In this document: piece after piece, positions 3,610 through 50,700 of the stretch
How positions within the stretch are numbered: the first letter of the stretch is position 1
How the letters are laid out: each line of letters begins with the position of its first letter
Assembly (NCBI GenBank): GCA_031459915.1
Contig: JAVKHO010000002.1
Coordinates: forward strand, 23,952-87,951
Source: Candidatus Tepidifontimicrobium thermophilum
Lineage (GTDB): Bacteria; Sysuimicrobiota; Sysuimicrobiia; Sysuimicrobiales; Sysuimicrobiaceae
Length of the DNA: 64,000 bases
Direction of reading: 5' to 3'
Notes under the pieces: generated by a model
Database searches by the model: none
Seen by the model: the letters and a program-made list of their open reading frames with translations, nothing else
What the model was told of the DNA's origin: nothing
Made by a program: the position numbers and the translations under genes

Positions 3610-3739
3610 CGCCGACCTCCTCCGTGCAACTTCGCGCAAGGAAATGGCCTTTGCTTTTCCGAAGTCTTCTGCGATCGAGCCCCGACTCCTGCCGGGACGT
3701 ACCGGAGGCCCGGACGTTTCCGTCACCGTTCGGCCAGCC

Positions 3740-4477
3740 TCAGGGGGCGGGCTCCACGACGGCGCGCTCGCGGAACCGCACGTCCACCACCGCAGGCCGC
3801 ACCCCGCGCGCCCGCAGGGCTTCGGCAACCCTCCGCGCCCTCCGCAGGCCCTGCTGCAGCTGTCGCGCGGCGACCCTTGCCACCACCCCGTCCCACCCTC
3901 CCACCACGTAGTCCCCGGTGCCAAGCCAGCGCACCCACCTCACCTGTCTGCGGTCCTCTTCCGGCAACGCCGCCAGCTCCACTACCAGCCCGACTACCGG
4001 TGCTGCGGGGACCACTTCTCCGGGCCGCAGCCAGGGCACCGCGGGGACGAGGACCACGGGCAGCCCTTCCGCCTGCTCGCCGCGGTCCAGGACGACGCCC
4101 TCTGCGTCCACCACGGCCTGGGTCCCGTCCGGAAGCCGGAGGGCCGCCACGGGCTGGCGCTCCTGCACCCACACCACTACCCGCGACGGCCACTGGACCT
4201 CCACACGCGCTTGTCTGACCCGCGGCAGCCGCAAAAGCCCGCGGCGGGCGCGCTCGGCATCCACGGACGCCAAGGGCGAACCCGGATCTAGCCCCGCCGC
4301 CCGGACTAGGGCCTGAGGGTCCAGGGTGACGGCACCGTGGACTTCCACGTATCGCAGGGAGAACACCGACGACGTCGGGAAGCTCACCACGGCGCAGGCG
4401 GCCGCGGTGGCCGCCCACAGCCGCAGCAGCCGCATCCACAACTCCGCGGGAGCCTGCGGCCGCTCCGGAGCGTGCAC
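3740..4477 (-). CDS. ftsQ: FtsQ/DivIB-like cell division protein (N-terminal TM, POTRA-like region)
   Basis: Bitopic protein in the canonical slot between murB and ftsA, with a hydrophobic N-terminal segment. Confidence 0.65.
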   Translation of the reverse strand: MHAPERPQAPAELWMRLLRLWAATAAACAVVSFPTSSVFSLRYVEVHGAVTLDPQALVRAAGLDPGSPLASVDAERARRGLLRLPRVRQARVEVQWPSRVVVWVQERQPVAALRLPDGTQAVVDAEGVVLDRGEQAEGLPVVLVPAVPWLRPGEVVPAAPVVGLVVELAALPEEDRRQVRWVRWLGTGDYVVGGWDGVVARVAARQLQQGLRRARRVAEALRARGVRPAVVDVRFRERAVVEPAP

Positions 4478-14368: not shown

Positions 14369-16135
14369 TCAATCGCCTCCCCGGTGTCGCACGACCTGGG
14401 GGGTGGACTCGCTCGGGGGCACTCCGAGCATCCACAACGCCTGTGAGGCGATCCGGCTGAAGACCGGCGCGGCCACCACGCCTCCGAAGTAAGCACCCCG
14501 GGGCTCGTCCACCACCACCACGATGGCCAGCTGCGGCCTGTCCGCGGGCACGACTCCCACGAAGGACGCCACATACCGGCCGGGTTCGTACCCGCCGTGC
14601 GGGGAAGGTTTCTGGGCGGTGCCGGTCTTGCCCGCTACCCGGTAGCCCCGAACCGCCGCCGCAGTCCCGGTGCCGTCCGTCACCGTGCCCTCCATCATGC
14701 GCAGAAGCGCGCGTGCCACGGCCGGCGACAGCACGCGGACCCGCTCCCCCGCGTCCAGTCGCCGCAAGCCTCCGTCCGGATCCCGGACCGCCACCGCCAG
14801 GTGCGGCCGGACCAGGTAGCCCCCGTTGGCCACCGCCGCCACGAAGCGCACTAGCTGCAGGGGCGTGACCGCCACGCCCTGGCCGATGGAGACCACGTAG
14901 GGGTCTGTTCCGGACCACTGGCGGGCCGGTCGGAGGATGCCCGCGGACTCCCCGGGCAGGTCCACCCCGGTGGTCTGACCGAAGCCGAAGCGGGTGAGGA
15001 AGTGGTGCAGCCGCTGTGGTCCCAGCATCGAGCCCACCTGGGCGGCCGCCACGTTGCACGACAGGCGCACCACTCCGGCCAGGTCGACCCGGCCGTGGGC
15101 TTCGCCGTGTGCCTCCCGGATGACATAACCTCCCGGGATCCGGAGGAAGCCGGGGCACGTAAAGCGTGACCGCACCTCCACCACGCCCTCCTCCAGGGCT
15201 GCAGCCACGGTCGCCAGCTTCAGGGTGGAGCCTGGCTCGTAACTGTCCAGGGCACGGTTGCGCCACGCCTGCTCGTTTTCCGGGAGCCGGTTAGGGTCGA
15301 AGGCCGGGAGGCTGGCGAGGGCCAGCACCTCGCCCGTGTGCACGTCCATGGCCACGGCCGCGCCGCCCCGCGCCCGGTACTGCGTCACGGTCCGCTCCAG
15401 CTCCCGCTCCGCGACGTGCTGGATGACGCTGTCCAGCGCCAACACCAGGTCAGAGCCTCGTCGGCCCGGGGAGAGCACCTGCCGGCCTTCCAGGATCTCG
15501 CGTCCCAGACCGTCCCGCACCCGTACCGCGCGGCCGGGGCGTCCCCGGAGGACTTCCTCGTACTGCAGCTCCAGGCCCGCGAGCCCCTGGTTGTCCACTC
15601 CCGTGAAGCCCAGGACGTGCGCGGCCAGGGAGCCCGCAGGGTACACCCGTCTTTCCTCGGGTTCGAAGCCCAGCTCTTGCTCCAGATCCAGCTCCCGAAG
15701 ACGCGCGGCGGCCTCCGGGGGAATCTGGCGGGCCAGCCAGACAAAGTAGCCGCCCCGCCGCACGCGATCCACCACCGCGGCCGGGTCCATCCCGAGCACC
15801 GGCCCCACCCGGCGCGCGAAGGCCTCGGGGTCCCGGATGGCGCGGGGTACCGCGTACACAGAGTCCCGCACGACGTTGGAAGCCAGTTCGCGGCCGGCCC
15901 GGTCGTAGATGCGCCCCCGGGAAGCAGGCAGGGTGACCGTGTCGACCTGCTGCCTCCGCCCCAGCTGCCTCAGGTTGTCGAACTTCGCGGTTTGCAGGTA
16001 GGCCACGCGGCCCGCCACCCCCGCCAGGGACAACAGCCACACCACCGCCAGCAGCTTCAGCCGGCGGCGGGAAAGGGCCAGGACCTCCGGGGACCCTTTC
16101 CGGGGCCCCCTCCCAGAAGACGGGTGGTGCTTCAT
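14369..16135 (-). CDS. ftsI: class B penicillin-binding protein FtsI (transpeptidase)
   Basis: N-terminal TM. The catalytic motifs GSTLK (SxxK), SCN and KTGT are intact. ATG at 16135 overlaps the ftsL TGA (ATGA). Confidence 0.9.
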   Translation of the reverse strand: MKHHPSSGRGPRKGSPEVLALSRRRLKLLAVVWLLSLAGVAGRVAYLQTAKFDNLRQLGRRQQVDTVTLPASRGRIYDRAGRELASNVVRDSVYAVPRAIRDPEAFARRVGPVLGMDPAAVVDRVRRGGYFVWLARQIPPEAAARLRELDLEQELGFEPEERRVYPAGSLAAHVLGFTGVDNQGLAGLELQYEEVLRGRPGRAVRVRDGLGREILEGRQVLSPGRRGSDLVLALDSVIQHVAERELERTVTQYRARGGAAVAMDVHTGEVLALASLPAFDPNRLPENEQAWRNRALDSYEPGSTLKLATVAAALEEGVVEVRSRFTCPGFLRIPGGYVIREAHGEAHGRVDLAGVVRLSCNVAAAQVGSMLGPQRLHHFLTRFGFGQTTGVDLPGESAGILRPARQWSGTDPYVVSIGQGVAVTPLQLVRFVAAVANGGYLVRPHLAVAVRDPDGGLRRLDAGERVRVLSPAVARALLRMMEGTVTDGTGTAAAVRGYRVAGKTGTAQKPSPHGGYEPGRYVASFVGVVPADRPQLAIVVVVDEPRGAYFGGVVAAPVFSRIASQALWMLGVPPSESTPQVVRHRGGD

Positions 16136-16596
16136 GGACGCTCGGGTTCTGCCGCCGAGGCTGCGGGGTCCCGGAAGACCTGGGCGATACGCTGCCACCA
16201 GGTCTGCGCAGGGGCCGCGGCCGGCCGGGGAGCAAGATCCGCCGGGATCACCGCCGCTACCAGCTGCTCTGGCGACGGCGGGTGCAGCCCCAACCGCGCC
16301 GCCACACGCTCCAAACGGTCGGGGGCCCGCAGGGCGGCTTCCCGGCTGCGCAGGGCCTGCCGCTCCCTCTCCAGCTCTGCCACCTCCTGCCGCAGAGCCC
16401 TCAGCCGGTAACCTGCCTGTGCCGCCTGGCTCTCCAGCCAAACGTGGCCCAGCAAAGGTGCGCCAAGAAGGACCAAAATCGCCAGGCCCCTGGCCACCGG
16501 ATTTGGGGGGCGCCTACGGGCCTGCGGCCGGGCGAGGCCCGCTTCCTTCGGCAGTAGGACTGGGTAGGTGCGGTGCTTGCGCTGGGCCGAGGTCAT
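16132..16596 (-). CDS. ftsL: FtsL-like bitopic coiled-coil cell division protein
   Basis: Small protein with one TM and an Arg/Glu-rich coiled coil, in the canonical slot between rsmH and ftsI. Its ATG overlaps the rsmH TGA. Confidence 0.6.
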   Translation of the reverse strand: MTSAQRKHRTYPVLLPKEAGLARPQARRRPPNPVARGLAILVLLGAPLLGHVWLESQAAQAGYRLRALRQEVAELERERQALRSREAALRAPDRLERVAARLGLHPPSPEQLVAAVIPADLAPRPAAAPAQTWWQRIAQVFRDPAASAAEPERP

Positions 16597-23583: not shown

Positions 23584-24798
23584 CTAGCTCTGCTTTTCCC
23601 CCTCTGGGGTCGGCTCCGCAGCCTGGGAGCCGGTCCCCTGCACCGCCTGCCGCAGCACCTCACCGGCCACAGCGCCGATGGTGAACCCGCTGCGCTCCTG
23701 AGCCGGCTGGTACTGGTTCAGCTCCTCCCGCTCCCGCTGCTGGCGCAGCCGACGGACGCTCACCACCATGCGGCGGCCCTCCGGCTTGATCTCGGTGACC
23801 ACCGCCTCCACGGTGGTCCCCACCTGTACCAGCTCCTCCACTTTCTGCCCCCTCCGCTCCGCCAGCTCGCTCAGGGGCAGGAACGCGTCCACGTCCTTCA
23901 ACCTCACGAAGGCGCCCGACGGTGCCAGGCGCACCACCTTGCCCCGCACCACGTCCCCTTCCCGGTAGCGGGAGCGGATGTCCACCCACGGGTCCGGCAG
24001 CACCTGCTTGAGGCTCAAGCTGATCTTCCCTGCCCCGGGATCCACCCGGATCACCCGCAGGCGCAGGGTCTGGCCCCGCCGCACCACCTCCGAAGGGTGC
24101 TTGATGTACGTCCACGCCATCTCGCTGATGGGCAGCAGGGCGTCCACCCCGCCCAGGTCGACGAACGCACCGAAGTCCGTGATCCGGCGGACCACGCCCT
24201 CCACCTCGTCCCCTTCCCGCAGGGTGTTGAACAGCTCCTCCCGGCGCCGGGCGCGCTCTTCCTCCACCGCCTGCTTGTGGGACAGGATCACCCGGTTCCG
24301 CTCGCGGTCGATCTCGATGACCTTGAGGGGCACACTCTCCCCCACCAGGTTCTCGAACCTCCGGCCCTTCACCCGGGTCAGGTCGATGTGGGAGCCGGGC
24401 ACGAAGCCCCGCAGGCCCACGTCCACCACGACCCCGCCCTTGACCCGGTCCACCACCATGGCATGCAGGACCTGCCCGTCCCGCAGCGCCGCCTCCAGCC
24501 GCTCCCAGGCCCTCTGCACGTCCGCGCGGCGCTTGCTGAGCAGGATGCTCCCTTCCTCCTGCTCCACCCGCATCACGTACACGTCGATCTGCTCGCCCAC
24601 CTGCAGGTCCGCGGGCGACTCACCGGGTCGGAACTCCCGCAAGGGGATGAGCCCTTCGGACTTGGCGCCCACGTCCACCAGCACGCCCTCACTGTCCACG
24701 CGCACCACGGTGCCGCGGACGATCTGGCGTTCCTGCAGCTCCGGGAACGCACTCTCCATGCTGACGTCTTCGGCGGGGGTCCGGCTCTCCTCGGACAT
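23584..24798 (-). CDS. rpsA: 30S ribosomal protein S1 (four S1 domains)
   Basis: Repeated S1 OB-fold domains in a 404-aa protein. Confidence 0.9.
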   Translation of the reverse strand: MSEESRTPAEDVSMESAFPELQERQIVRGTVVRVDSEGVLVDVGAKSEGLIPLREFRPGESPADLQVGEQIDVYVMRVEQEEGSILLSKRRADVQRAWERLEAALRDGQVLHAMVVDRVKGGVVVDVGLRGFVPGSHIDLTRVKGRRFENLVGESVPLKVIEIDRERNRVILSHKQAVEEERARRREELFNTLREGDEVEGVVRRITDFGAFVDLGGVDALLPISEMAWTYIKHPSEVVRRGQTLRLRVIRVDPGAGKISLSLKQVLPDPWVDIRSRYREGDVVRGKVVRLAPSGAFVRLKDVDAFLPLSELAERRGQKVEELVQVGTTVEAVVTEIKPEGRRMVVSVRRLRQQREREELNQYQPAQERSGFTIGAVAGEVLRQAVQGTGSQAAEPTPEGEKQS

Positions 24799-25942: not shown

Positions 25943-26613
25943 GTGCGGGCCGGCTTCGCAGACGTAGCTTGGCGCAGGGCTCGCAGGGCCGCGGCCACGC
26001 CCTCTGGGTGGCGGTACACGTAGTACCCGGCCACGAGGACGGTAGCCCCCGCCTCCACGGCCCGGGCGCCGGTGGTGGGGTCGATCCCGCCGTCTACCTC
26101 GAGCTCGAAGTGCAGGGCCCGCTCGTCCCGCACGCGCGCTAGGTGAGACACCTTCCGAAGCATCCGGGGGAGGAACTCCTGGCCGCCGAAGCCCGGATCC
26201 ACCGTCATCACCACCACCGTGTCCACGTCCTCCAGGACCCACTCCACCGCCTCGGGAGGGGTGTGCGGGTTGAGGGCCACCCCCGGGGCGGCGCCCAGCT
26301 CCCGGATGCGGGACAGGGTCCGGTGCAGGTGGCGGCAGGCCTCCACGTGCACCGAGATGCGGTCCGCGCCCGCGGTGCGGAACGCCTCCAGCAACCGGTC
26401 CGGGGCCTCCACCATCAGGTGCACGTCCAGGGGCAGCCGGGTGCACCGGCGTACGGCATCTACCACCACGGGCCCCACGGTGAGGTTCGGCACGAAGTGC
26501 CCGTCCATCACGTCCACGTGGATCCAGTCTGCCCCTGCAGCCTCGGCCTCCACCACCTGCTCGCCCAGGCGCGCGAAGTCCGCGGACAGCAAAGAGGGCG
26601 CCAGCCGGATCAC
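25939..26613 (-). CDS. rpe: ribulose-phosphate 3-epimerase
   Basis: SLLSADFARLGEQV...HVDVMDGHFVPN... Confidence 0.9.
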   Translation of the reverse strand: MIRLAPSLLSADFARLGEQVVEAEAAGADWIHVDVMDGHFVPNLTVGPVVVDAVRRCTRLPLDVHLMVEAPDRLLEAFRTAGADRISVHVEACRHLHRTLSRIRELGAAPGVALNPHTPPEAVEWVLEDVDTVVVMTVDPGFGGQEFLPRMLRKVSHLARVRDERALHFELEVDGGIDPTTGARAVEAGATVLVAGYYVYRHPEGVAAALRALRQATSAKPART

Positions 26614-28541
26614 GGCCGCACCTCCTGGACGAAGCGCCCGCCGAAGTACACCTGCACGATGGCGTAGCCTTCTACCTCCACCGTCCGCACCACGCGCTCG
26701 CCGGGTTCGTGCACCTGCCGGTACGCCACCCGCACGCCGCGGCTGTCGATCACCACGATGCGGACCTCCTCAGGCTCCCCGGGCGGTAAGGTCAGCTCCA
26801 GCCGGACCCTCCGCACCGCCCCGGCCGCGGGCTCGGCGGTGGCCTGTACCGCGGGCGGGGTCGGCAACGGGGGCAGGGGAGCGCCCACCTCGGGTGTCGC
26901 GGGCGCCGTGGGGAGGGCCGGCGCGGCGGTGGGCTGCACCTGGGGCCGGACCGCCACCACCAGCGCGAGCCGCTGGGTGCGTTGGATGCGGCTCCCCGCA
27001 GCCGGGCTCTGCTCCACCACGATCCCTGGCGGCACGTCCGTCCGGGCCAGGTAGCCGACTCGATCCAGGTTGAGCCCGGCCCGGTGCAGGACGTCCCGTG
27101 CCTGCTCCAGGGTCAGACCCACCAGTCCCGGTACGGTCACCAGCTCAGGCCCCTTGCTCACCACCAGGTCCACCGTCTGGCCCCGGCCCACCTCTGACCC
27201 CGGGGCCGGCTCCTGGGACACCACCACCCCCCGCGGGGCCTGGTCGTCGAAGTCCTCCCTCACCCTGCCCACCCGGACCCGAGCCTGTTCCAGGAGCAGG
27301 GTGGCCTCCGCCAGCGGCCTACGGGTCACGTCGGGCACCACGACCCGCTCAGGACCCTGGCTGAGGATCACGGACACCCACCGGCCTTCCCGGACCTTTT
27401 GGCCTGCCGGAGGGTCCTGGTCCACGACCACGCCCGAGGGGTAGCGGTCGTGGTACTGCCGACCCGCCACCGTCAGCTGCAACCGCAGCTCTGCGGCCGC
27501 AGCCTGCGCCTCCGTGAGGGACCGGCCCCGGAAGTCGGGCACCGTCACCTCCGCCACGTTCACGTACGCCTGTAGGGCCCGCCAACCCGCCACCATACCG
27601 GAGGCCAGGGCTACCAGCAGCACCGCGGCCACCGCGGCAGCGGACGGCCTCCACCGCCGCCGCGGGACCGCGGCCGGACGCTCCAGGACCACCGTGGGAC
27701 CTTCGCGCCAGTACTGGGCCCGGCCCTCGAGGTCGGCCCGCATGTGGGCGGCGGACGGGTAACGGTCCTCAGGCCGCTTAGCGAGGGCCCGTCGCACCAC
27801 GCCCTCCAGCCACTCGGGGACCTCAGGGTTGGCGTGCCGCAGGGACGGAGGCTCCTCGTACAGCTGCTTCAGGACCACGGCGATGGGAGACTCCCCGTCG
27901 AAGGGCAGCTCGCCCGTCAGCATCTCGTACAGCACCACGCCCAGGGCGTACAGGTCGGAGGCAGCGGTGGCGGGCTCGCCCTTCGCCTGCTCGGGGGACA
28001 GGTAGTGCACCGAGCCCAGCACCGTTCCCGTTTCGGTGATGGTGGCGGAGGTGAGGGCCCGGGCGATCCCGAAGTCGGTGACCTTCACCTGCCCGGTGGG
28101 CGTGAGCAGGATGTTCTGGGGCTTGACGTCCCGGTGGACGATCCCGCGGGCGTGGGCGTACTGCAGGGCGTCGCACACCGCCGCCGCGACGGCTGCGGCG
28201 CGCGCGGGGGACAGGGGGCCCGAGCGGCGCAGCAGGGACTTCAGGTCCTCCCCCTCCACGTACTCCATGACCAGGAACCGCACCCCGCGGTCCTCCCCGC
28301 GATCGAGCACAGGCACCACGTGGGGGTGCGCCAGGGAAGCAGCCGCCTGCGCCTCCCGCTCGAAGCGCTCCACGAACTCCCGGTCGTGGCAGTACGGCTC
28401 CCGGAGGACCTTCACCGCCACTACCTTGCCGTCGGACAGCCGCCGGGCCCGGTACACGGTGGCCATCCCGCCGTGGCCCACGGTCTCCAGAAGCTCGTAC
28501 CGGCCTGCCAGCACCGACCCAGAAGCCACCGCCACGTGCAC
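26610..28541 (-). CDS. prkC: PASTA-domain Ser/Thr protein kinase (PrkC/PknB-type)
   Basis: VAVKVL, HRDVKPQN and DFG kinase motifs intact. Single TM, three PASTA repeats, Pro-rich linker and a C-terminal beta-rich domain. Confidence 0.9.
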   Translation of the reverse strand: MHVAVASGSVLAGRYELLETVGHGGMATVYRARRLSDGKVVAVKVLREPYCHDREFVERFEREAQAAASLAHPHVVPVLDRGEDRGVRFLVMEYVEGEDLKSLLRRSGPLSPARAAAVAAAVCDALQYAHARGIVHRDVKPQNILLTPTGQVKVTDFGIARALTSATITETGTVLGSVHYLSPEQAKGEPATAASDLYALGVVLYEMLTGELPFDGESPIAVVLKQLYEEPPSLRHANPEVPEWLEGVVRRALAKRPEDRYPSAAHMRADLEGRAQYWREGPTVVLERPAAVPRRRWRPSAAAVAAVLLVALASGMVAGWRALQAYVNVAEVTVPDFRGRSLTEAQAAAAELRLQLTVAGRQYHDRYPSGVVVDQDPPAGQKVREGRWVSVILSQGPERVVVPDVTRRPLAEATLLLEQARVRVGRVREDFDDQAPRGVVVSQEPAPGSEVGRGQTVDLVVSKGPELVTVPGLVGLTLEQARDVLHRAGLNLDRVGYLARTDVPPGIVVEQSPAAGSRIQRTQRLALVVAVRPQVQPTAAPALPTAPATPEVGAPLPPLPTPPAVQATAEPAAGAVRRVRLELTLPPGEPEEVRIVVIDSRGVRVAYRQVHEPGERVVRTVEVEGYAIVQVYFGGRFVQEVRP

Positions 28542-28563: not shown

Positions 28564-29874
28564 CTACCGTACCACCCTCAGGGCCGCTTCCACGACCTTC
28601 TGGCCCACGCGGTTCGCCACCTCCTCAGTTGCCCCCTCCACCAGCACCGCAACCGCCAGGCGTGGCCGCTGGGCGGGCGCGAGGCCTACGAACCAACCCA
28701 CGGATTCTTTCGCGGCCCGCACGACGCCGCTAACTGCCGGCACGCCGCCTTTTCCGGACACCCTCATGGCCTCCACCACCGCGTGCGCCACCTCCGGGGC
28801 CAGGATACGCATGGCGGGCCGCGCCGGGGTCCTGTCCACGACCCCCAGCTCGCCCCGCAGGGCGGTCACGAAGTACGGGCTCACCCGCTCGCCTCCCCGC
28901 GCCACGGTGGCGGCCACAGCCGCCATTTGCAGGGGAGACACCAGCACGCCGCCCTCCCCGGATGCCACGCGGGCCAGCGCGTCCCGATCCCGTTCGTCCA
29001 GCTCCGGGAACCCGCCTGCGGCGGCGGGCACGTCCGTAGCCGGCAGCTGGCCCAGCCCGAGGGCCTCAGCCATCTCCCGCAGCACCCGGCCTCCGAGGGC
29101 CACGCCCATCTGGATCAGCGCCCGGTCACAGTCTCCGGTCAGGACGTCCCGCACCAGGTGGATGCGCTGGGTCCCGGAACCCCCGCAGTCCACCGGGCTG
29201 TGAAGGGTGACCAACCCGCGGCTGAGAGCCGCGCTCAGCACGACGATCCCGAAGGGTCTGCCCGGAGGGTACAGGCCGCTCAGCGCGCGGTCCACCAGCG
29301 GCAAGGCGGGCGACCACCGCAGCTCGGCCCAGGTCTCCTCCAGGTGGTTGGGGTCAAAGCCGGGACGGCTGGCACTGGCCACGACGCCGCCTGTCAGTGC
29401 CACCACGACCACAGCGCCGGCCCTGGGGCCGAGTGCGAGCCACACCTCCCGTTGCAGCCTGGCGTCGAGGGTGGTGACCACGTCCAGCCCGCGACGCGGC
29501 CGGCCCGCCCGCGCCCGCAACGCCCGCCAGGAGTCGGCCTCCGCCATGCCCAGCAGCTCCGCGTCCGCGGACGCCTCAAGCCCGGCCTTGCCCAGCAGGA
29601 GGCTGCGGTAGCCTACCGGGTGGGCGAACACCTCCTTCTTGGGATACACCCGCACCGTCCGGCCGCCTCGGCGGACGCTGTGTGCCAGAACCTCCAGCCG
29701 CCGGTCCAGAATCCGTCCCCGCTGGACCCGGTCCTCAGCCAGCAGCAGGCGCGGGTTTTCCGAGTGGTGGGCCAGGTCCGGCCCGCGGACCACCTGCCAG
29801 TAACCGACCCACGCTGCCACCACCGCGAAAAGTCCTATGTGCAGCGCTGCCAGTCTCCTCAGCCGGTCCCTCAC
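28564..29874 (-). CDS. class-B PBP2/PbpA-like transpeptidase homolog with degenerate catalytic motifs
   Basis: Aligns with ftsI of this window (GWFVGLAPAQRPRLAVAV versus ASFVGVVPADRPQLAIVV). The SxxK, SxN and KTG positions read PPGRPFG, GDCD and SGKGG. Confidence 0.75.
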   Translation of the reverse strand: MRDRLRRLAALHIGLFAVVAAWVGYWQVVRGPDLAHHSENPRLLLAEDRVQRGRILDRRLEVLAHSVRRGGRTVRVYPKKEVFAHPVGYRSLLLGKAGLEASADAELLGMAEADSWRALRARAGRPRRGLDVVTTLDARLQREVWLALGPRAGAVVVVALTGGVVASASRPGFDPNHLEETWAELRWSPALPLVDRALSGLYPPGRPFGIVVLSAALSRGLVTLHSPVDCGGSGTQRIHLVRDVLTGDCDRALIQMGVALGGRVLREMAEALGLGQLPATDVPAAAGGFPELDERDRDALARVASGEGGVLVSPLQMAAVAATVARGGERVSPYFVTALRGELGVVDRTPARPAMRILAPEVAHAVVEAMRVSGKGGVPAVSGVVRAAKESVGWFVGLAPAQRPRLAVAVLVEGATEEVANRVGQKVVEAALRVVR

Positions 29875-31094
29875 CGGAGGTCCTCCCGCACCCGCGGCGC
29901 GGCCAGCACCGCCCCCACTAGCGCCAACTGGACCGCCGCCGACACCCCCCCGGCGCTCACGAAGGGCATCGGTACGTCCGCGGGTGGCACCACTCCCACG
30001 GCTCCTGCAGCCGCCAAAAACGCCTGGCTAGCCACCAAAGCCGCCGCACCCGCAGCCAGTAACCGCACCCAGGGCGCTCCCGCCTGTCCGGCGGCACGCA
30101 CCGCCCGCCCCGTCCACACCGCGTATCCCGCCACTAGCGCCGTCACACCCCCAAACCCCCACTCCTCCGCCACCGCGGCCAAAACAAACCCCGCGTGGGA
30201 CTGCGGGACGAGTTCGGGGTACCCCGCACCCGGGCCTGCACCGGCCAAGCCGCCTGAGGCCACCGCGAACAGGCTCTGGACCAGGGGGTATCCGGCCCCC
30301 AGGCGGTCCGCCCACGGGTTCACCCACCCCCGCAGACGCTCTGTGAGCTGCGGGATCGTGGCGTACGCCAGACCCGCCATCAACAGGAAGCCGCCGGCAC
30401 CCGTAAGCACAGGCCCCAGGGACGCGGTAGCGCAGTAAGCGAGGGCCAGGGCCACCCAGACCATCACCGCCGCGGTCCCCACGTCCCCACGCAGCAGCCA
30501 CAGGGTTGCGGACGCAGCCCACGCGGCCACCACGGAGCCCCTCACCTTCCCCCGTGTCAGCTCTGCCACGCCCAGCACCAACGCGAGCAGCTTCGCCAGC
30601 TCGGAGGCGGCCTCCACCACCGCGGCCTCGGCCGGCGTCCGGATCGGCAGTCCGCGCTCTACCCACGCCCACCCCCACGGGAACAGCGACACCGTCACCA
30701 GCAGGGCGGCCAACGGAGTTGCCAGCCGCTGTGGGTTCAACGGCCGGCGTGCCATCCGGAAGGACGCCACCGACAGCGCCAGCCCCGCGCACACCCACGC
30801 GGCCTGGTAAGCCACCAGGTGGGGCTGTAGGCGGTAGGTGGTGACCAGGCCCACCGCCACCAGCAGCGCGGTAACGGGCAGCAGCACGCCTTCTCCGGTC
30901 TGGAGCACCCGGTCGACAGCGGGGAACGCCAGCAGGGCCACGGCTACGTACAGCAGCGCCAGCGGAGGATCCTGGGGGTGCTTGTTCCCGTGCACGAGGG
31001 CCGCGCCAGCTAGGCCTACGGCCAGGGCCAACGCGTAGAGCTCTGCTCCCCTCCACCAGGCCCTCTTGGTGCAAGGGGTGTCGGGCGGGTGCAT
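29871..31094 (-). CDS. SEDS-family RodA/FtsW-like membrane protein with a divergent conserved motif
   Basis: Polytopic SEDS homolog. Its PELVPQSHAGFVLAAVAEE aligns to ftsW PERHTDFIFAILAEE with the Asp replaced by Gly. Confidence 0.75.
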   Translation of the reverse strand: MHPPDTPCTKRAWWRGAELYALALAVGLAGAALVHGNKHPQDPPLALLYVAVALLAFPAVDRVLQTGEGVLLPVTALLVAVGLVTTYRLQPHLVAYQAAWVCAGLALSVASFRMARRPLNPQRLATPLAALLVTVSLFPWGWAWVERGLPIRTPAEAAVVEAASELAKLLALVLGVAELTRGKVRGSVVAAWAASATLWLLRGDVGTAAVMVWVALALAYCATASLGPVLTGAGGFLLMAGLAYATIPQLTERLRGWVNPWADRLGAGYPLVQSLFAVASGGLAGAGPGAGYPELVPQSHAGFVLAAVAEEWGFGGVTALVAGYAVWTGRAVRAAGQAGAPWVRLLAAGAAALVASQAFLAAAGAVGVVPPADVPMPFVSAGGVSAAVQLALVGAVLAAPRVREDLR

Positions 31095-31100
31095 GTGGGC

Positions 31101-31532
31101 TCAGCCGCCGGCCGCTTGCGGGCCGCGGGGCTGGAGAAAACGGAACACCGTGGAGCCCACGCGCACACGGTCCCCGTGGCGGACGGGGGCGGGGACCTCC
31201 AGCCTCCGGCCGTTCAGGTACGTGCCCGCCGGAGATCCCAGGTCCTCCAGCCAGAAGCTGTCCCCGGAGCCCACGAGGCGGGCGTGCCTGAGGCCGGCCT
31301 CTGGGTCCGGCACGGTCACGTCGTTGCCCGTCCCCCGGCCCACCAGCGCCTCGCCCCGCACGGCAAACGCCTCGCCCGGGCTCATCCCAGGCCCCTCTTC
31401 CACCAGCAGCACCGCCCAGGGCCGGTCCAGCTCCTGGCCCGCCGCACGCAGGTCATCCCCTACCACCCTCACCACCCGGTAGAGGAAGAGGAACAGGGCT
31501 GCCAGGAGGACGTACCGCAGCGCCTCGCTCAC
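31101..31532 (-). CDS. FhaB-like membrane-anchored FHA-domain protein
   Basis: N-terminal TM (YVLLAALFLFLY) and C-terminal FHA domain (TVFRF). GTG at 31532 overlaps the upstream TGA. Confidence 0.7.
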   Translation of the reverse strand: MSEALRYVLLAALFLFLYRVVRVVGDDLRAAGQELDRPWAVLLVEEGPGMSPGEAFAVRGEALVGRGTGNDVTVPDPEAGLRHARLVGSGDSFWLEDLGSPAGTYLNGRRLEVPAPVRHGDRVRVGSTVFRFLQPRGPQAAGG

Positions 31533-31852
31533 GGGCCCTCCCGGTATTCCAGGACTACCCCGCCCAGCTGCAGGCGGTCGCCGTGGCGCAGCCGGCACTG
31601 GGTCACCTTGCGCCCGTTCACGAACGTCCCGTTGGTGGAGCCCAGGTCCACCACCTCCACCCCGTCCGGCCCCCGCTCCACCCGCGCGTGCTCCCTCGAC
31701 ACGCCCGGGTCCGCCAGGACAAGGTCGCAGGTCTGCGAGCGCCCCAGGGTGTGGCACCCGCGCAATACCAGCACCGCGCCCTCCCCTGGTCCCCTCAGCA
31801 CTCTCAGGACCGGCAGGGTGCCCACTTGGTAGACCCGGGTGTCCTGATCCAC
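31529..31852 (-). CDS. small cytosolic FHA-domain protein
   Basis: GRSQTCDLVLADPGVSREHARV...TNGTFVNG FHA signature. GTG start with GGGAGGG upstream. Confidence 0.75.
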   Translation of the reverse strand: MDQDTRVYQVGTLPVLRVLRGPGEGAVLVLRGCHTLGRSQTCDLVLADPGVSREHARVERGPDGVEVVDLGSTNGTFVNGRKVTQCRLRHGDRLQLGGVVLEYREGP

Positions 31853-47295: not shown

Positions 47296-50200
47296 TCACG
47301 GCAGCGGCTGCAGCACCAGCGTCACGGGCTCGCCGAGGATCGACACCTCCCTGCGGAATCCCTCCAACTCACGCGCCAGCTCCACGCGGTCCGCCAGCAC
47401 CTCCTCCGCCACCGCCGCGCGGTGCTCCCTCACCGCCTCCACCACCTCCGCCGGCCCGGCCACCGAAAGCACGATCCGCTGGTCCACCCGGAGTTCCGCC
47501 TCCCGCCGCGCCTGCTGCACGTGGTGCACCAGCTCCCGCACCAGCCCTTCCCGCCGCAGCTCCGGGGTGATGCGGGTATCCAGCACCACCACGAACCCTC
47601 GCCCCGCCTCGGCCACGAATCCCTCCCGCTGCCGGACGCGCACGTCCAGCTCCTCCGGACCCAGCTCCACCCGCTCGCCTGCCAGCTCCACCACCGCCCG
47701 GCCCTCCAAGGCGACCCGTCGCGCCTCCGCGGGGCTGAGGCGATCCAAAGCCGCGGCGAGCTCCTGGACCTTGGGCCCGTACCGGGGCCCCAGCACGTCG
47801 AACCGCGGCCTGACCTCGTACTCCACCCGTGCGCTGTCCTGCCCGACCAGCTCCACCCGCTTGCAGTTGAGCTCCTCGGACACGTACTCCACCAGCTCAG
47901 GGTACCGGTGCAGGAGGGACTGGGGGGCCACCACCACCGCCGAAGCGAGCGGCTGGCGGACCCGGATGCGGGCCCGGGACCGCGCCGCGCGGCCCAGGCT
48001 CGCCACCCACCGCGCCTCCTCCATGGCCCGTTCCAGCTCGACGTCCCGATCCTGCTCCCTGGCCTGTGGCCAGTCCGTGAGGTGCACGCTCACCGGCGCG
48101 CCGTCGTCCACCGCCCGAACGAGCCCCTGGTACAGCTCCTCGGACAGGAAGGGGGCCAGCGGAGCCATGACCTTGGCGGTGGTGACCAGGGCTTCGTACA
48201 GGGTGTGGTACGCGCTGCGCTGGTCCTGCACGTCCCTGGCCTTCCAGTACCGACGCCGTCCCCGACGCACGTACCAGGTGGACAGGTCCTCCACGAACCG
48301 CTCCACCGCGCGGGCCGCGTCGGTGGGGTTATACGCCTCCATGGCCTCGGTGGCTTCCGCCACCAGCCCGGCCAGCCGCGACAGCAGCCAGCGGTCCAGG
48401 GCAGGTCGCTCGTTGACGGTCGGCGCGGGCCACCGCAGGGGGTCGAAGCGGTCCAGGCTGGCGTAGGTCGTGAAGAACACGTACGTGTTCCACAGGGTGA
48501 GGAAGAACCGCCGGACGACTTCCTCCACCGCGGCAGGGCCGAGCCGTTTGGGCATCCCCGGGGGGCTGACGGAGAAGAAGAACCACCGCAGGGCGTCCGC
48601 GCCGAACCGCTGGATGAGGCTCCACGGGTCCAGTACGTTCCCCCGGCTCTTGCTCATCTTCTCCCCGTGCTCGTCCAGCACCAGCTCCAGGCACACGCAG
48701 TTCCGGTACGCCGGCCGGTCGAACAGCAGCACGGAGATGGCGTGGAGGCTGTAGAACCACCCCCGGGTCTGGTCGATCCCCTCGCAGATGTAGTCCGCGG
48801 GGAAGGAGCGCTCGAACCACTCCTGGTTCTCGAAGGGGTAGTGCCACTGGGCCACGGGCATGGCCCCCGAATCGAACCACACGTCGATGAGGTCGGGGAC
48901 CCGGCGCAGGATCCCGCCACACCGCGGACAGCGCAGCCGGACTCCGTCCACGTACGGCCGGTGCAGGTCCAGGGGCTGCGGCAGCGGCTCCGCGGCCATC
49001 TCCCGGAGCTCCGCAAGGCTGCCCACGCAGTGCTGGAGCCCGCACGCCTCGCACACCCAGATCGGGAGGGGCGTGCCCCAGTACCGCTCCCGGGACAGGG
49101 CCCAGTCCACCACGTTCTCCAGCCAGTTCCCGAACCGGCCGCGCTGGATGTGCTCGGGCACCCACCGGATCTGCTCGTTCGCCCGCAGGAGCTGCTCCTT
49201 ACACCGGGTGACCGCCACGTGCCAGCTGGTGCGGGCGTAGTACAGGAGGGGGCTATCGCAGCGCCAGCAGAAGGGGTAGGTGTGACGGTAGGTGCCCGCG
49301 CGGTACAGCAGGCCCCGCTGGCGCAGGTCCTCCACGATCTCCGGGTCCGCGTCCTTCACGAACCGCCCCGCCCACGGGGGGACCTCCTCCGTGTACCGGC
49401 CGTCGGGGCCCACCGGGTGGAACACCGGGAGGCCGTGCCGCCGCGCCAGCTCCATGTCCTCCTCCCCGTAGGCCGGCGCCATGTGCACCACCCCGGTCCC
49501 CTCCTCGGTGGTGACGAACTCTGCGGCCCACACCCGCCACAACCGGTCGCCCTCTGGGTAGAAGCGGAAAAGGGGCTCGTACTTCAGGCCCACCAGGGAC
49601 TCCCCGCGGACCTCCTCCAGGACCTCGTAGGAGCCTTGCAGCACGGCGTCCGCCAGGTCTTTCGCCACCACCAACACCTCGTCTCCCTGGCGGGCCTTCA
49701 CGTAGGCGACCTGCGGGTGCACCGCGCACGCCACGTTGGCGGGCAGCGTCCAGGGCGTGGTGGTCCACACCAGCAGCGACGTCCCGGGCTGCTCGGTCAG
49801 CCGGAGCCGCACGATCACCGAGGGGTCGTCCGTCTCCCGGTAGCCCAAAGCCACCTCGTGGCTGCTGAGCGGGGTCCCGCAACGGGGGCAGTAGGGCACC
49901 ACCTTGTAACCCTGGTAGAGCAGCCCGCGGTCCCAGAGCTGCCGGAGGATCCACCACACGGACTCGATGTACTCGTTGGAGTACGTCACGTAGGGGTGCT
50001 CGTAGTCCAGCCAGAAGCCGATGCGCTCGCTCAGGCGCACCCACTCCCGCTCGTAGCGGAACACGGACTCCTTACAGCGGCGGTTGAATTCCGCAACCCC
50101 GTAGGCCTCGATCTCCCGTTTGCTGTTGATCCCGAGCTCCTTCTCCACCTCGATCTCCACGGGCAGGCCGTGGGTGTCCCAACCCGCCTTGCGGGGGACA

Positions 50201-50436
50201 AAGTAGCCGCGCATGGTGCGGTAGCGCGGGATGGCGTCCTTGTAGGCCCGGGCCAGGACGTGGTGCACGCCCGGCAGCCCGTTGGCCGTGGGCGGCCCCT
50301 CGTAGAAGGTGAACTGCGGGCAGCCCTGCCGCGCTTCCAGGGTCTTGCGGAAGACGTCCTGCTCGGCCCAGAAGCCCAAGATCCGCTCTTCCAGCTCCGG
50401 GAAGTTCACCCGGGGCGAAGCTGGTGAAAATCCCAT
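47296..50436 (-). CDS. ileS: isoleucine--tRNA ligase, type 2 (long form)
   Basis: PPTANGLPGVHH (HIGH region) and GEKMSKSRGN motifs in a 1046-aa protein. Confidence 0.95.
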   Translation of the reverse strand: MGFSPASPRVNFPELEERILGFWAEQDVFRKTLEARQGCPQFTFYEGPPTANGLPGVHHVLARAYKDAIPRYRTMRGYFVPRKAGWDTHGLPVEIEVEKELGINSKREIEAYGVAEFNRRCKESVFRYEREWVRLSERIGFWLDYEHPYVTYSNEYIESVWWILRQLWDRGLLYQGYKVVPYCPRCGTPLSSHEVALGYRETDDPSVIVRLRLTEQPGTSLLVWTTTPWTLPANVACAVHPQVAYVKARQGDEVLVVAKDLADAVLQGSYEVLEEVRGESLVGLKYEPLFRFYPEGDRLWRVWAAEFVTTEEGTGVVHMAPAYGEEDMELARRHGLPVFHPVGPDGRYTEEVPPWAGRFVKDADPEIVEDLRQRGLLYRAGTYRHTYPFCWRCDSPLLYYARTSWHVAVTRCKEQLLRANEQIRWVPEHIQRGRFGNWLENVVDWALSRERYWGTPLPIWVCEACGLQHCVGSLAELREMAAEPLPQPLDLHRPYVDGVRLRCPRCGGILRRVPDLIDVWFDSGAMPVAQWHYPFENQEWFERSFPADYICEGIDQTRGWFYSLHAISVLLFDRPAYRNCVCLELVLDEHGEKMSKSRGNVLDPWSLIQRFGADALRWFFFSVSPPGMPKRLGPAAVEEVVRRFFLTLWNTYVFFTTYASLDRFDPLRWPAPTVNERPALDRWLLSRLAGLVAEATEAMEAYNPTDAARAVERFVEDLSTWYVRRGRRRYWKARDVQDQRSAYHTLYEALVTTAKVMAPLAPFLSEELYQGLVRAVDDGAPVSVHLTDWPQAREQDRDVELERAMEEARWVASLGRAARSRARIRVRQPLASAVVVAPQSLLHRYPELVEYVSEELNCKRVELVGQDSARVEYEVRPRFDVLGPRYGPKVQELAAALDRLSPAEARRVALEGRAVVELAGERVELGPEELDVRVRQREGFVAEAGRGFVVVLDTRITPELRREGLVRELVHHVQQARREAELRVDQRIVLSVAGPAEVVEAVREHRAAVAEEVLADRVELARELEGFRREVSILGEPVTLVLQPLP

Positions 50437-50439
50437 CCC

Positions 50440-50700
50440 GTCCTCCTGGAAAAGCCGAGGCCCGTCCCACCGGGACGGGCCTCGGCCCGCGGTACCACCC
50501 CGCTTCAGGCAAGCGCGCCTGCCCTCTGCCGGAACGGGAGGCGTCCGTCGCCTCCGATTCCGCCCTCCGGGTCACGGTGGAGGCTCCGTCCTCGGCTACT
50601 CCTTGGCGTTTCGCCGGGAAGCTCCGGGGCGATGTTCACGCCGCGCGACCCACCGCCTCCCACCACCGCGGCTCGCTTCGGGACCCGCCCGCGGCGCTAC
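50440..50700 (-). promoter_or_regulatory. T-box riboswitch leader of ileS (Ile specifier inferred)
   Basis: T-box sequence GGGTGGTACCGCGG at 50500..50487 overlaps the 5' arm of the terminator. Candidate specifier AAC-AUC-G at 50643..50641. Confidence 0.8.
50450..50486 (-). terminator. T-box terminator hairpin GCCGAGGCCCGTCCC-GGTG-GGACGGGCCTCGGC plus UUUU
   Basis: Perfect 15-bp stem followed by TTTT, then the AGGAGGA SD and ATG. Confidence 0.7.

What the first reader, a model, noticed from the sequence alone, without database searches (positions are those of the whole stretch)
28564..31094. RodA-like and PBP2-like pair next to the Ser/Thr kinase have both lost conserved catalytic motifs
The PBP homolog aligns well with ftsI from this window. 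For example, GWFVGLAPAQRPRLAVAV matches ASFVGVVPADRPQLAIVV. However, the SxxK nucleophile motif reads PPGRPFG where ftsI has PGSTLK. The SxN motif reads GDCD, and KTG reads SGKGG. The adjacent SEDS homolog reads PELVPQSHAGFVLAAVAEE where the bona fide ftsW in this window has PERHTDFIFAILAEE, so a conserved Asp is Gly. The associated kinase keeps its HRD, DFG and VAVK motifs. Together this looks like a catalytically dead elongasome-like SEDS-bPBP pair kept in an FHA-SEDS-PBP-PASTA-kinase operon. It could act as a scaffold or sensor module rather than a synthase.
Basis: partly seen in the sequence, partly recalled or inferred. Interest (0 to 1): 0.7.

Follow-up and report, generated by a model that had tools for sequence, protein, structure and literature searches.

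The report
Catalytically dead RodA–PbpA pair, conserved
Next to a cell-wall-sensing kinase, this uncultured hot-spring bacterium keeps a pair of peptidoglycan-synthase homologues that have both lost their catalytic residues. Selection still preserves them across a whole clade, so they probably serve as a non-enzymatic membrane complex rather than as a synthase.

Summary
The bPBP (28564-29874, minus strand) aligns end to end with M. tuberculosis PbpA. It has RPFG for SxxK and DCD for SxN, and no K-T/S-G on the β3 strand. The SEDS protein (29871-31094) has Gly where E. coli RodA has the catalytic Asp262, and it lacks the PL2 Arg/Trp/Gln residues.

This is not decay or error. The exact proteins occur on about 30 public contigs. 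A monophyletic clade of 19 bPBPs and about 12 SEDS partners from GAL15/CSP1-3 ('Armatimonadota') MAGs shares the losses, down to 40-54% identity. dN/dS is 0.25-0.28, and AlphaFold models are confident (pLDDT 90). Sister genomes with the same synteny carry an intact pair plus full-length FhaA.

The dead clade also lacks the FhaA N-domain and an operon PP2C. Its FhaB phosphothreonine pocket is degenerate. The PASTA kinase is intact.

Conservation has moved from the active sites to the TM/pedestal region and the SEDS ECL4 loop, which points to a non-catalytic complex. That function is inferred, not shown. I found no published natural dead SEDS-bPBP pair. It is a new variant of a known kind, of moderate interest.

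The parts
29871..31094 (-). SEDS (RodA/FtsW-family) homologue of 407 aa, a pseudo-glycosyltransferase. Gly302 replaces the catalytic Asp (E. coli RodA D262). The PL2 residues R101, W102, R109 and Q111 are absent. E114, K117, D159, R210 and P257 equivalents are kept.
   Evidence: PF01098 at 132 bits. Alignment to 8TJ3_B. Site table. AF2 pLDDT 90.2, pTM 0.90. Foldseek to FtsW/RodA structures, TMt 0.67-0.75.
30189..30191 (-). Codon for Gly302, the position of the SEDS catalytic Asp (HTDF has become HAGF).
   Evidence: In 11 of the 12 clade members examined this position is G, S, F, P, T or A.
28564..29874 (-). PbpA-type class B PBP homologue of 436 aa, with a TM helix, pedestal (PBP_dimer_2) and transpeptidase fold. 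It is a pseudo-transpeptidase.
   Evidence: PF00905 at 88 bits and PF21922 at 43 bits. phmmer to M. tuberculosis PbpA, E=1e-41. AF2 pLDDT 90.2. Foldseek to 3UPN, TM 0.80, rmsd 3.3 Å.
29248..29259 (-). R206-P-F-G209 at the place of the SxxK motif. The Ser nucleophile is Arg and the Lys is Gly.
29125..29133 (-). D248-C249-D250 at the place of the SxN motif.
28711..28734 (-). Residues 381-388 (VSGVVRAA), the β3 strand where KTG should be. There is no K-[TS]-G, and the β3-β4 loop is shortened.
   Evidence: The AF2 model has strands at 380-387 and 390-399.
26610..28541 (-). PASTA Ser/Thr kinase (PknB/Stk1 type) with all catalytic motifs intact, three PASTA repeats and a C-terminal domain.
   Evidence: NF033483 at 578 bits, above the 450 cut-off. 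Pfam Pkinase and three PASTA repeats. Motif check across loci.
31101..31532 (-). FhaB/FipA-like protein (TM helix plus FHA, 143 aa) with a degenerate phosphothreonine pocket. The Ser of SxxH is Gly and the Asn of the NG motif is Ala.
   Evidence: PF00498 and NF049868. Alignment of 8 loci.
31529..31852 (-). Stand-alone FHA protein of 107 aa, orthologous to FhaA but without the FhaA_N domain. The pThr-binding residues GR, SRxH and TNG are kept.
   Evidence: PF00498 at 84 bits. Sister loci have 242-243 aa FhaA with PF12401. Alignment. No FhaA_N remnant was found.

Best explanation
The locus is the orthologue of the actinobacterial-type cell-wall module fhaA-fhaB-(pstP)-rodA-pbpA-pknB. In one subclade of the uncultured GAL15/CSP1-3 lineage (deposited as 'Armatimonadota') the synthase pair has become a pair of pseudoenzymes. 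The bPBP can no longer form an acyl-enzyme, because it has no Ser nucleophile, no Lys, no SxN and no KTG. The SEDS protein can no longer polymerise lipid II, because it has no catalytic Asp and has lost the PL2 pyrophosphate-binding residues.

Both proteins keep their folds, their TM and pedestal regions, and the SEDS ECL4 and TM8-9 regions that form the SEDS-bPBP interface in solved complexes. They are still translationally coupled and are under purifying selection. I therefore propose that they persist as a non-catalytic membrane complex. Most likely this complex is a structural or regulatory scaffold tied to the intact PASTA kinase and the FHA proteins.

Peptidoglycan synthesis itself would be done by FtsW-FtsI, which are intact in the dcw cluster of the same window, and by whatever other synthases the genome encodes.

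Shown: orthology and synteny, loss of catalytic residues, clade-wide conservation, omega well below 1, and retained fold. Inferred: that the complex still forms, and what it does.
For: Loss of catalytic residues:
- Searches show the substitutions.
- Experimental benchmark: E. coli RodA D262A is inactive (PMC10449877).

Orthology with an intact ancestor:
- Seven related loci share the order priA-def-fmt-Zn peptidase-rsmB-rlmN-[module]-rpe-HDAC-S1, except that the sister locus L090 has no rpe call (a 48-aa ORF sits in its place).
- The sister genomes L086 and L090 have STFK, SCN and KTGT in the PBP, and HTD, W102, E114 and K117 in the SEDS protein.
- The dead PBP clade of 19 sequences is monophyletic and sister to the intact P0019-22.

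Selection (Nei-Gojobori):
- For window vs L081, omega is 0.25 for SEDS (Fisher p=3e-18) and 0.28 for PBP (p=4e-13). The kinase gives 0.16.
- There are no frameshifts or stops across lineages where dS exceeds 0.8.
- Constraint is relaxed. SEDS dN is 2.7-3.9 times kinase dN in the dead clade, against 1.05 times in the intact sister pair.

Fold retained:
- AF2 gives pLDDT 90 for both proteins.
- Foldseek finds PbpA at TM 0.80 and RodA/FtsW at TMt 0.67-0.75.

Constraint has moved away from the catalytic centres:
- In the PBP, residues 21-100 (juxtamembrane and pedestal) are the most conserved. The SxN and KTG segments are as variable as, or more variable than, in active relatives.
- In the SEDS protein, residues 261-300 (the first half of ECL4) and the start of TM8 are highly conserved. 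PL2 and TM4 are relaxed.

Precedent for a catalysis-independent structural role of a bPBP: B. subtilis PBP2B S309A (PMC5656894).
Against: - No experiment or expression data exist for these uncultured organisms.
- The two genes are the fastest-evolving in the locus. SEDS is 51% identical where S1 is 93% and the kinase 83%. Slow decay is therefore not fully excluded.
- The FhaB pThr pocket, the FhaA N-domain and the operon PP2C have also been lost. This could equally mean the whole regulatory link to the pair is being dismantled.
- I could not model complex formation with the kinase, or even between the two proteins.
- I could not inventory the rest of the genome for a second pair, MreB or class A PBPs.
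Confidence: 0.6

Rival explanations
1. Relic in slow decay. The elongation-type synthase became dispensable in this lineage, and the genes are non-functional leftovers that have not yet been deleted.
For: - They have the highest substitution rates in the locus.
- dN relative to the kinase is 2-4 times higher than in the intact sister lineage.
- Different branches carry different inactivating changes. L084 keeps HTD but has lost E114, K117 and W102. Other members have G, S, F, P, T or A at D262.
- Accessory features (FhaA_N, PP2C, the FhaB pocket) were lost at the same time.
Against: - omega is 0.25-0.28 with p<1e-12 for the closest pair, and below 0.7 even for saturated pairs.
- Full-length, alignable ORFs survive in 19 PBP and about 12 SEDS lineages, down to 40-54% identity.
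- 55 SEDS positions are invariant within the clade, with dense invariance in ECL4.
- Gene overlaps that indicate translational coupling are retained in all loci.
- The one sister genome with published statistics is only about 2.2 Mb. Small genomes tend to shed dead genes.
Confidence: 0.17
2. The proteins are still enzymes. They use alternative residues, or they have been recruited to a different reaction on a lipid-linked or peptide substrate.
For: - The folds are intact.
- SEDS keeps D159, R210, P257 and mostly E114/K117.
- The PBP keeps an invariant Cys230/Cys249 pair and the YPPG motif.
Against: - No alternative nucleophile or base is conserved. The Ser position is R, A or T, the Lys position is G, R or Q, and the SxN and KTG segments differ from lineage to lineage.
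- D262 is replaced by six different residues.
- The former active-site segments are the least constrained parts of both proteins.
- D262A alone abolishes RodA activity.
Confidence: 0.05
3. The pair is a non-catalytic ligand sensor. The dead SEDS-bPBP binds lipid II or stem peptides without turnover and reports to the PASTA kinase.
For: - The pair sits immediately upstream of an intact PASTA kinase in one tightly packed operon.
- The ECL4 cavity-lining segment of the SEDS protein is strongly conserved.
- From general knowledge, BlaR1/MecR1 is a precedent for a PBP-like sensor domain.
Against: - The residues modelled to hold the lipid II pyrophosphate (R48, R101, R109) are lost in the window protein.
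- The PBP active-site cleft motifs are the most variable regions.
- BlaR1-type sensing needs the acylating Ser, which is absent here.
Confidence: 0.15
4. Artefact: assembly or sequencing error, a chimeric MAG, or a misalignment creates apparent motif loss.
For: None found.
Against: - Identical proteins occur on 29-36 independent contigs from NCBI, JGI, ENA and Logan.
- Three independent alignment methods agree: phmmer, MAFFT and hmmalign.
- Codon usage (GC3 0.83-0.85) matches the neighbouring genes.
Confidence: 0.01

Closest known systems
Mycobacterium/Actinobacteria fhaA-fhaB-pstP-rodA-pbpA-pknA-pknB cell-wall operon (RodA-PbpA pair; PDB 3UN7/3LO7 for PbpA)
   Same: - Gene order FHA, TM-FHA, SEDS, PbpA-type bPBP (PBP_dimer_2 plus transpeptidase), then PASTA kinase.
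- The best sequence and structure match of the PBP is M. tuberculosis PbpA (E=1e-41; TM 0.80).
- Sister CSP1-3 genomes have the complete version with FhaA_N, and in L086 also PP2C.
   Different: - Both synthase subunits lack their catalytic residues.
- FhaA is reduced to the bare FHA domain, and the FhaB pThr pocket is degenerate.
- There is no PP2C gene and only one kinase gene.
- The module sits in a Firmicutes-like def-fmt-rsmB-rlmN ... rpe context.
E. coli RodA-PBP2 and T. thermophilus RodA-PBP2 (8TJ3, 6PL5); P. aeruginosa FtsW (8BH1)
   Same: - Ten-TM SEDS fold (TMt 0.67-0.75).
- Conserved ECL4 'DPxxDxLGxGYxxxQS...GSGG' segment, plus the P257, R210 and D159 equivalents.
- Adjacent cognate bPBP.
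   Different: The catalytic Asp262 is Gly. R48, R101, W102, R109 and Q111 are lost. D262Ala alone inactivates the E. coli enzyme.
B. subtilis PBP2B(S309A), an engineered catalytically inactive bPBP that still supports division
   Same: It shows that a bPBP can have a structural or assembly role independent of transpeptidation (PMC5656894). That is the kind of role proposed here.
   Different: - That is a laboratory point mutant of a divisome PBP whose SEDS partner is active.
- Here the inactivation is natural and ancient, removes all three motifs, and extends to the SEDS partner.
Dead PbpA-like bPBPs paired with intact SEDS in other uncultured lineages, found here (P0028/L091, P0042/L092, P0083/L093)
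   Same: PbpA-type bPBPs that lack SxxK, SxN and KTG and sit next to a SEDS gene. In L091 the pair also lies downstream of FhaA and FhaB.
   Different: - Their SEDS partners keep every catalytic and substrate-binding residue. They fit the model of a bPBP acting as a non-catalytic activator of an active SEDS.
- No kinase is adjacent, and a PNP_UDP_1 gene precedes the SEDS gene.
Locus L094 (P0291), an independent dead SEDS plus degraded bPBP in a FhaA-FhaB-PP2C-SEDS-PBP-kinase operon
   Same: The SEDS protein has Gly at D262 ('AATGL'). The neighbouring PBP lacks the SxxK, SxN and KTG regions. The operon type is the same.
   Different: - It belongs to a different lineage; its SEDS protein resembles the P0130-134 group.
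- The PBP is shortened to 372 aa by internal deletions.
- It still has FhaA_N and PP2C.
- It is known from a single contig, so selection could not be assessed.

Membership tests
SEDS (FtsW/RodA/SpoVE, PF01098) as a homologous superfamily | Significant profile match and the ten-TM SEDS fold | tested here: met
   PF01098 at 132 bits against a cut-off of 26.4. AF2 pLDDT 90.2. Foldseek to 8P1U, 6PL6 and 8TJ3, TMt 0.67-0.75.
SEDS peptidoglycan glycosyltransferase (functional RodA/FtsW) | Catalytic Asp in ECL4 (E. coli RodA D262, the HTDF motif) | tested here: not met
   The window has Gly302 in HAGF. Of the 150 nearest 50%-identity representatives, 146 keep the Asp. D262A is inactive.
SEDS peptidoglycan glycosyltransferase (functional RodA/FtsW) | PL2 motif GxxRW...FQPSE (R101, W102, R109, Q111) and the TM4 Glu/Lys pair (E114, K117) | tested here: inconclusive
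   In the window protein R101, W102, R109 and Q111 are lost while E114 and K117 are kept. The PL2 register varies between alignment runs for some clade members (L082, P0128 and P0129 may keep 'RRW'). L084 has lost E114 and K117.
SEDS peptidoglycan glycosyltransferase (functional RodA/FtsW) | NCBIfam equivalog score (TIGR02210 rodA, TIGR02614 ftsW) | tested here: not met
   115 and 143 bits against cut-offs of about 337.
Class B PBP, PbpA type (fold and domain architecture) | N-terminal TM helix, PBP_dimer_2 pedestal and PF00905 transpeptidase fold | tested here: met
   AF2 model. Foldseek to M. tuberculosis PbpA, TM 0.80.
Class B PBP as a DD-transpeptidase / penicillin-binding enzyme | SxxK with the nucleophilic Ser and the general-base Lys | tested here: not met
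   RPFG.
Class B PBP as a DD-transpeptidase / penicillin-binding enzyme | SxN (or SxD) motif | tested here: not met
   DCD, so the Ser is absent.
Class B PBP as a DD-transpeptidase / penicillin-binding enzyme | K-T/S-G on strand β3 | tested here: not met
   Residues 381-388 (VSGVVRAA) contain no K-[TS]-G in any alignment register.
Class B PBP as a DD-transpeptidase / penicillin-binding enzyme | Covalent β-lactam (bocillin) binding | not testable with these tools
   This needs purified protein.
Actinobacterial-type fhaA-fhaB-pstP-rodA-pbpA-pknB module | Gene order FHA, TM-FHA, SEDS, bPBP, then PASTA kinase | tested here: met
   The order is conserved in five further dead-clade loci.
Actinobacterial-type fhaA-fhaB-pstP-rodA-pbpA-pknB module | FhaA with its N-terminal FhaA_N (PF12401) domain, and a PP2C phosphatase gene | tested here: not met
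   FhaA is 107 aa and consists of the FHA domain only. tblastn finds no PP2C or FhaA_N in the window or in the dead-clade loci. The sister loci have FhaA_N, and L086 also has PP2C.
PASTA Ser/Thr kinase (Stk1/PknB, NF033483) | Equivalog score, catalytic motifs and PASTA repeats | tested here: met
   578 bits against a cut-off of 450. Three PASTA repeats. GxGxxA, VAVK, HRD and DFG are conserved in all 8 loci.

The most novel reading that the evidence does not exclude
The dead SEDS-bPBP pair, together with the degenerate FhaB, is a dedicated non-enzymatic receptor or scaffold of the PASTA-kinase pathway. On this reading a synthase complex has been converted into a signalling or positioning device, the cell-wall counterpart of pseudokinase scaffolds. 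The conversion would be recurrent, because an independent dead pair (L094) and several dead bPBPs with live SEDS partners (L091-L093) exist in other lineages.
Probability: 0.2. Interest if true: 0.8.

Novelty: new variant of a known kind. Interest (0 to 1): 0.58.

Why it matters
SEDS-bPBP pairs are the core peptidoglycan polymerases of bacteria and major antibiotic targets. Their non-catalytic roles (allosteric activation, complex assembly, possible lipid II handling) are debated, and so far have been studied only with engineered point mutants.

A natural pair that is dead in both subunits yet kept under purifying selection across a family- to order-level clade is a ready-made separation-of-function case. 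An intact orthologous pair in sister genomes serves as a built-in control. The case shows which surfaces stay constrained once catalysis is gone: the TM and pedestal region of the bPBP, and ECL4 and TM8 of the SEDS protein.

It also warns that automatic labels such as 'FtsW/RodA/SpoVE family' or 'penicillin-binding transpeptidase domain-containing protein' hide pseudoenzymes. Cell-wall capacity inferred from gene presence in uncultured phyla can therefore be overestimated.

Tried and rejected
1. The genome-contig scan with alignment A3 was wasted. The back-translated pattern YPPG[RSA][TPA]F[GKR] also matched canonical PbpA genes. I recovered the related loci through the look-up of encoding contigs instead.

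2. Second intact rodA/pbpA pair or MreB:
- The window holds only two SEDS and two bPBP genes.
- It holds no MreB; tblastn hits only FtsA.
- I had no tool for a genome-wide inventory.
- The supplement of the CSP1-3 paper holds no mreB, rodA or KO entries.

3. Morphology of the lineage: the only paper found on CSP1-3/GAL15 (PMC11604079) gives no cell shape or cell-wall data.

4. Literature searches for natural dead SEDS or bPBP pseudoenzymes returned nothing relevant. The Streptomyces review (PMC6273383) tabulates missing motifs only for β-lactamases.

5. PP2C loss as a hallmark of the dead state is rejected. The intact sister locus L090 also lacks PP2C in the operon.

Full report
**What is at the coordinates**

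The window is 72% G+C and almost all genes are on the minus strand. The finding spans two ORFs that overlap by 4 nt.
- 29871-31094 is a 407-aa SEDS protein (PF01098, 132 bits).
- 28564-29874 is a 436-aa class B PBP of the PbpA type (PF21922 pedestal plus PF00905 transpeptidase).

The genes are tightly packed, separated by 4-nt overlaps or gaps of at most 22 nt. The minus-strand order is def, fmt, Zn peptidase, rsmB, rlmN, FHA protein (31529-31852), TM+FHA protein (31101-31532), SEDS, bPBP, PASTA kinase (26610-28541), rpe.

Both synthase homologues score far below the NCBIfam equivalog cut-offs. The PBP gets 164 bits against 455 for pbp2_mrdA. The SEDS protein gets 115 and 143 bits against about 337 for rodA and ftsW. 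The kinase passes its equivalog cut-off, 578 against 450.

**Checking the observation**

bPBP. phmmer against PDB sequences aligns it over its whole length to M. tuberculosis PbpA (E=1e-41).
- 'YPPGRPFG' lies on 'YPPGSTFK', so Ser becomes Arg206 and Lys becomes Gly209.
- 'GDCD' lies on 'KSCN'.
- The 'SKTGT' strand falls on residues 381-388 (VSGVVRAA) with a shortened following loop.
No K-[TS]-G exists in any register.

SEDS. It aligns to E. coli RodA (8TJ3_B) with 'VPQSHAGF' on 'LPERHTDF', so Asp262 becomes Gly302.
- I recalled the E. coli RodA sequence from memory for a site table. Its numbering reproduces D262, D159, W102, E114, K117, P257 and R210, and it matches the stretch printed.
- The window protein also lacks R48, R101, W102, R109 and Q111. 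It keeps E114, K117, D159, R210 and P257.
- Nygaard et al. 2023 show that Asp262Ala makes RodA-PBP2 enzymatically inactive. They model R48, R101, R109 and R210 on the lipid II pyrophosphates (PMC10449877).

Comparators. FtsI and FtsW in the dcw cluster of the same window carry STLK/SCN/KTGT and HTDF. The kinase keeps all its catalytic motifs.

**It is real and clade-wide**

The exact PBP and SEDS sequences are on 36 and 29 public contigs. NCBI names them 'penicillin-binding transpeptidase domain-containing protein' and 'FtsW/RodA/SpoVE family cell cycle protein' of 'Armatimonadota bacterium'. Relatives are named 'candidate division GAL15'. GAL15 is the SILVA name for phylum CSP1-3/Sysuimicrobiota, and the sister MAG GCA_031432545.1 is classified p__CSP1-3 (PMC11604079).

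I aligned 122 PbpA-like sequences.
- Nineteen of them (the window plus P0001-P0018, 51-94% identical) lack all three motifs.
- They form one clade in a neighbour-joining tree, sister to P0019-P0022 (44-48% identical), which keep STFK/SIFK, SCN and KTGT.

Among the SEDS partners, 11 of the 12 clade members examined lack Asp262. The replacements are G, S, F, P, T or A. The deepest branch (L084) keeps HTD but has lost W102, E114 and K117.

I ran a profile of the dead SEDS proteins against 1.84 billion representatives.
- It found 12,971 SEDS proteins at E≤1e-10.
- Of the best 150, only four lack the Asp.
- Three of those belong to this clade, including an L084-like member with His.

**Orthology with an intact module**

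Five dead-clade loci (L081, L082, L084, L088, L089) and two sister loci (L086, L090) share the synteny priA-def-fmt-Zn peptidase-rsmB-rlmN-[module]-rpe-HDAC-S1. The one exception is that L090 has no rpe call; a 48-aa ORF sits in its place.
- In the sisters the module is FhaA (242-243 aa, with FhaA_N PF12401), FhaB, SEDS, PBP and PASTA kinase, with intact catalytic residues. L086 also has a PP2C gene.
- In the dead clade FhaA is a bare FHA domain of 107-120 aa. No PP2C or FhaA_N remnant is detectable.
- The FhaB FHA domain has lost its phosphothreonine-binding Asn in all six dead-clade loci, its Ser in five of them, and its Arg in two. FhaA keeps GR, SRxH and TNG.
- PP2C absence is not diagnostic, because the intact L090 lacks it too.

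**Selection and structure**

Amino-acid identity to the window shows that SEDS and PBP are the fastest-evolving genes of the locus. Against L088, SEDS is 51% identical and PBP 64%, while the kinase is 83% and S1 93%.

Nei-Gojobori estimates for the closest, unsaturated pair (window vs L081, dS 0.25-0.35) are as follows.

| Gene | omega | Fisher p (omega<1) |
|---|---|---|
| SEDS | 0.25 | 3e-18 |
| PBP | 0.28 | 4e-13 |
| kinase | 0.16 | not listed here |
| rlmN | 0.18 | not listed here |

The former transpeptidase domain alone (residues 221-436) has omega 0.34.

Relative to the kinase, SEDS dN is 2.7-3.9 times higher and PBP dN 2.0-2.8 times higher in the dead clade. Both ratios are about 1 in the intact sister pair. 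Selection is therefore relaxed but clearly purifying.

AlphaFold2 models are confident.
- PBP: pLDDT 90.2, pTM 0.86. Its best PDB match is M. tuberculosis PbpA at TM 0.80.
- SEDS: pLDDT 90.2, pTM 0.90. It matches FtsW and RodA structures at TMt 0.67-0.75.

**Where the constraint now lies**

bPBP:
- The juxtamembrane and pedestal region (residues 21-100) and the helix that used to carry SxxK are the most conserved.
- The SxN and KTG segments are as variable as, or more variable than, in active relatives.

SEDS:
- Residues 261-300 (the first half of ECL4, 'NPWADxLGxGYPLVQSLFA..GGL.G.GPG.G.PELVP') and 'AEEWGF' at the start of TM8 are nearly invariant.
- PL2 and TM4 are relaxed.

In solved RodA-PBP2 complexes these conserved regions make the SEDS-bPBP contacts (general knowledge of 6PL5 and 8TJ3). 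The pattern fits a complex that still assembles but no longer catalyses.

**Interpretation**

Most likely (about 0.6), the pair persists as a non-catalytic membrane complex associated with the PASTA-kinase/FHA module. FtsW-FtsI and other synthases would make the wall. A catalysis-independent structural role for a bPBP has experimental precedent in B. subtilis PBP2B S309A (PMC5656894).

Rivals:
- Slow decay (about 0.17). It is supported by the elevated rates and the simultaneous loss of accessory features. It is opposed by omega, by ORF integrity over deep divergence, and by the small genome of the one sister MAG with published statistics (about 2.2 Mb).
- A ligand-sensing pseudo-receptor (about 0.15). 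It is weakened because the former binding residues are the ones that were lost or drifted.
- Residual or new catalysis (about 0.05). No conserved substitute residues exist.
- Artefact (about 0.01).

**Wider context found on the way**

- Other uncultured lineages have dead PbpA-like bPBPs next to fully intact SEDS proteins (L091, L092, L093). Each pair is preceded by a PNP_UDP_1 gene.
- One unrelated contig (L094) has an independent Asp-to-Gly SEDS next to a truncated, motif-less PBP, inside a FhaA-FhaB-PP2C-SEDS-PBP-kinase operon.
- Catalytic loss in this module therefore recurs. Loss in the bPBP alone is the commoner state.
- In CSP1-3 the different inactivating changes in L084 and in the rest suggest that glycosyltransferase activity became dispensable at or before the base of the clade.

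**Limits**

- I could not inventory the rest of the genome. The window holds only the FtsW/FtsI pair besides this one, and no MreB.
- I could not model the complex or obtain expression data.
- The NG86 estimates are crude for a genome with GC3 of 0.83-0.93.
- My literature searches found no description of a natural dead SEDS-bPBP pair. That is absence from one library, not proof of novelty.

**Verdict**

This is a new variant of a known kind, of moderate interest.

Noticed in passing
window 31101-31532 (-); loci L081, L082, L084, L088, L089: The FhaB/FipA-like TM+FHA protein has a degenerate phosphothreonine pocket throughout the dead clade. The Asn of the NG motif is A, G or S. The Ser of SxxH is G, A, Q or E in five of six loci. 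The Arg of GR is Thr in L082 and L089. The intact sister loci keep all three residues.
   Followed up: partly
window 31529-31852 (-), compared with L086 6486-7217 and L090 3574-4302: The FhaA orthologue is only 107 aa, a bare FHA domain with an intact pThr pocket. Sister genomes have 242-243 aa proteins with the FhaA_N domain (PF12401). tblastn finds no remnant of that domain in the window.
   Followed up: yes
L091 3378-7183; L092 295-4128; L093 3535-8332: Three other uncultured lineages (59-67% GC) carry a PbpA-like bPBP without SxxK, SxN or KTG next to a SEDS protein with every catalytic residue intact. Each pair is preceded by a PNP_UDP_1 (PF01048) gene. L093 has a LysM-YkuD L,D-transpeptidase gene ending about 300 nt upstream of the PNP_UDP_1 gene. 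P0034, P0040 and P0031 look similar but I did not look them up.
   Followed up: partly
L094 3608-10010: An independent dead pair in a 69% GC contig. The order is FhaA(FhaA_N)-FhaB-PP2C-SEDS-PBP-kinase. The SEDS protein has 'AATGL', so D262 is Gly. The PBP is 372 aa; its SxxK and SxN regions are deleted and KTG is GGD. It is a single contig, so I could not assess selection.
   Followed up: partly
hits (e.g. P0182, P0184, P0186, P0187; 850-900 aa): Many of the nearest SEDS representatives are 850-900 aa long. The SEDS domain occupies the first ~420 residues, which suggests natural SEDS-bPBP fusion proteins. I did not examine the C-terminal halves.
   Followed up: no
window 28564-29874 (-), residues C230 and C249: Two cysteines are invariant across dead and intact members of alignment A3. 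One of them is the middle residue of the former SxN motif. This is compatible with a structural disulfide kept after catalysis was lost.
   Followed up: no
window 1-24800 and 36000-64000: The rest of the window is housekeeping:
- M50 protease (29-1435), FtsZ (1261-2373) and FtsA (2374-3939).
- The dcw cluster, with FtsW (7822-9003) and FtsI (14369-16441).
- thi genes, placed by synteny with L081, and S1 (23584-24798).
- YicC, an NFACT protein, rluD-like, lgt, lspA, murI and ileS (47296-50571).
- The suf cluster (55-60 kb).

There is no MreB and no third SEDS or bPBP gene.
   Followed up: partly
window 29871-31094 (-): NCBI gene calls for this SEDS protein start 21 codons later (386 aa against 407 aa). 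The ATG at 31094 lies 6 nt after the FhaB stop. The N-terminal 20 residues are poorly conserved and have low pLDDT, so the true start is uncertain.
   Followed up: no
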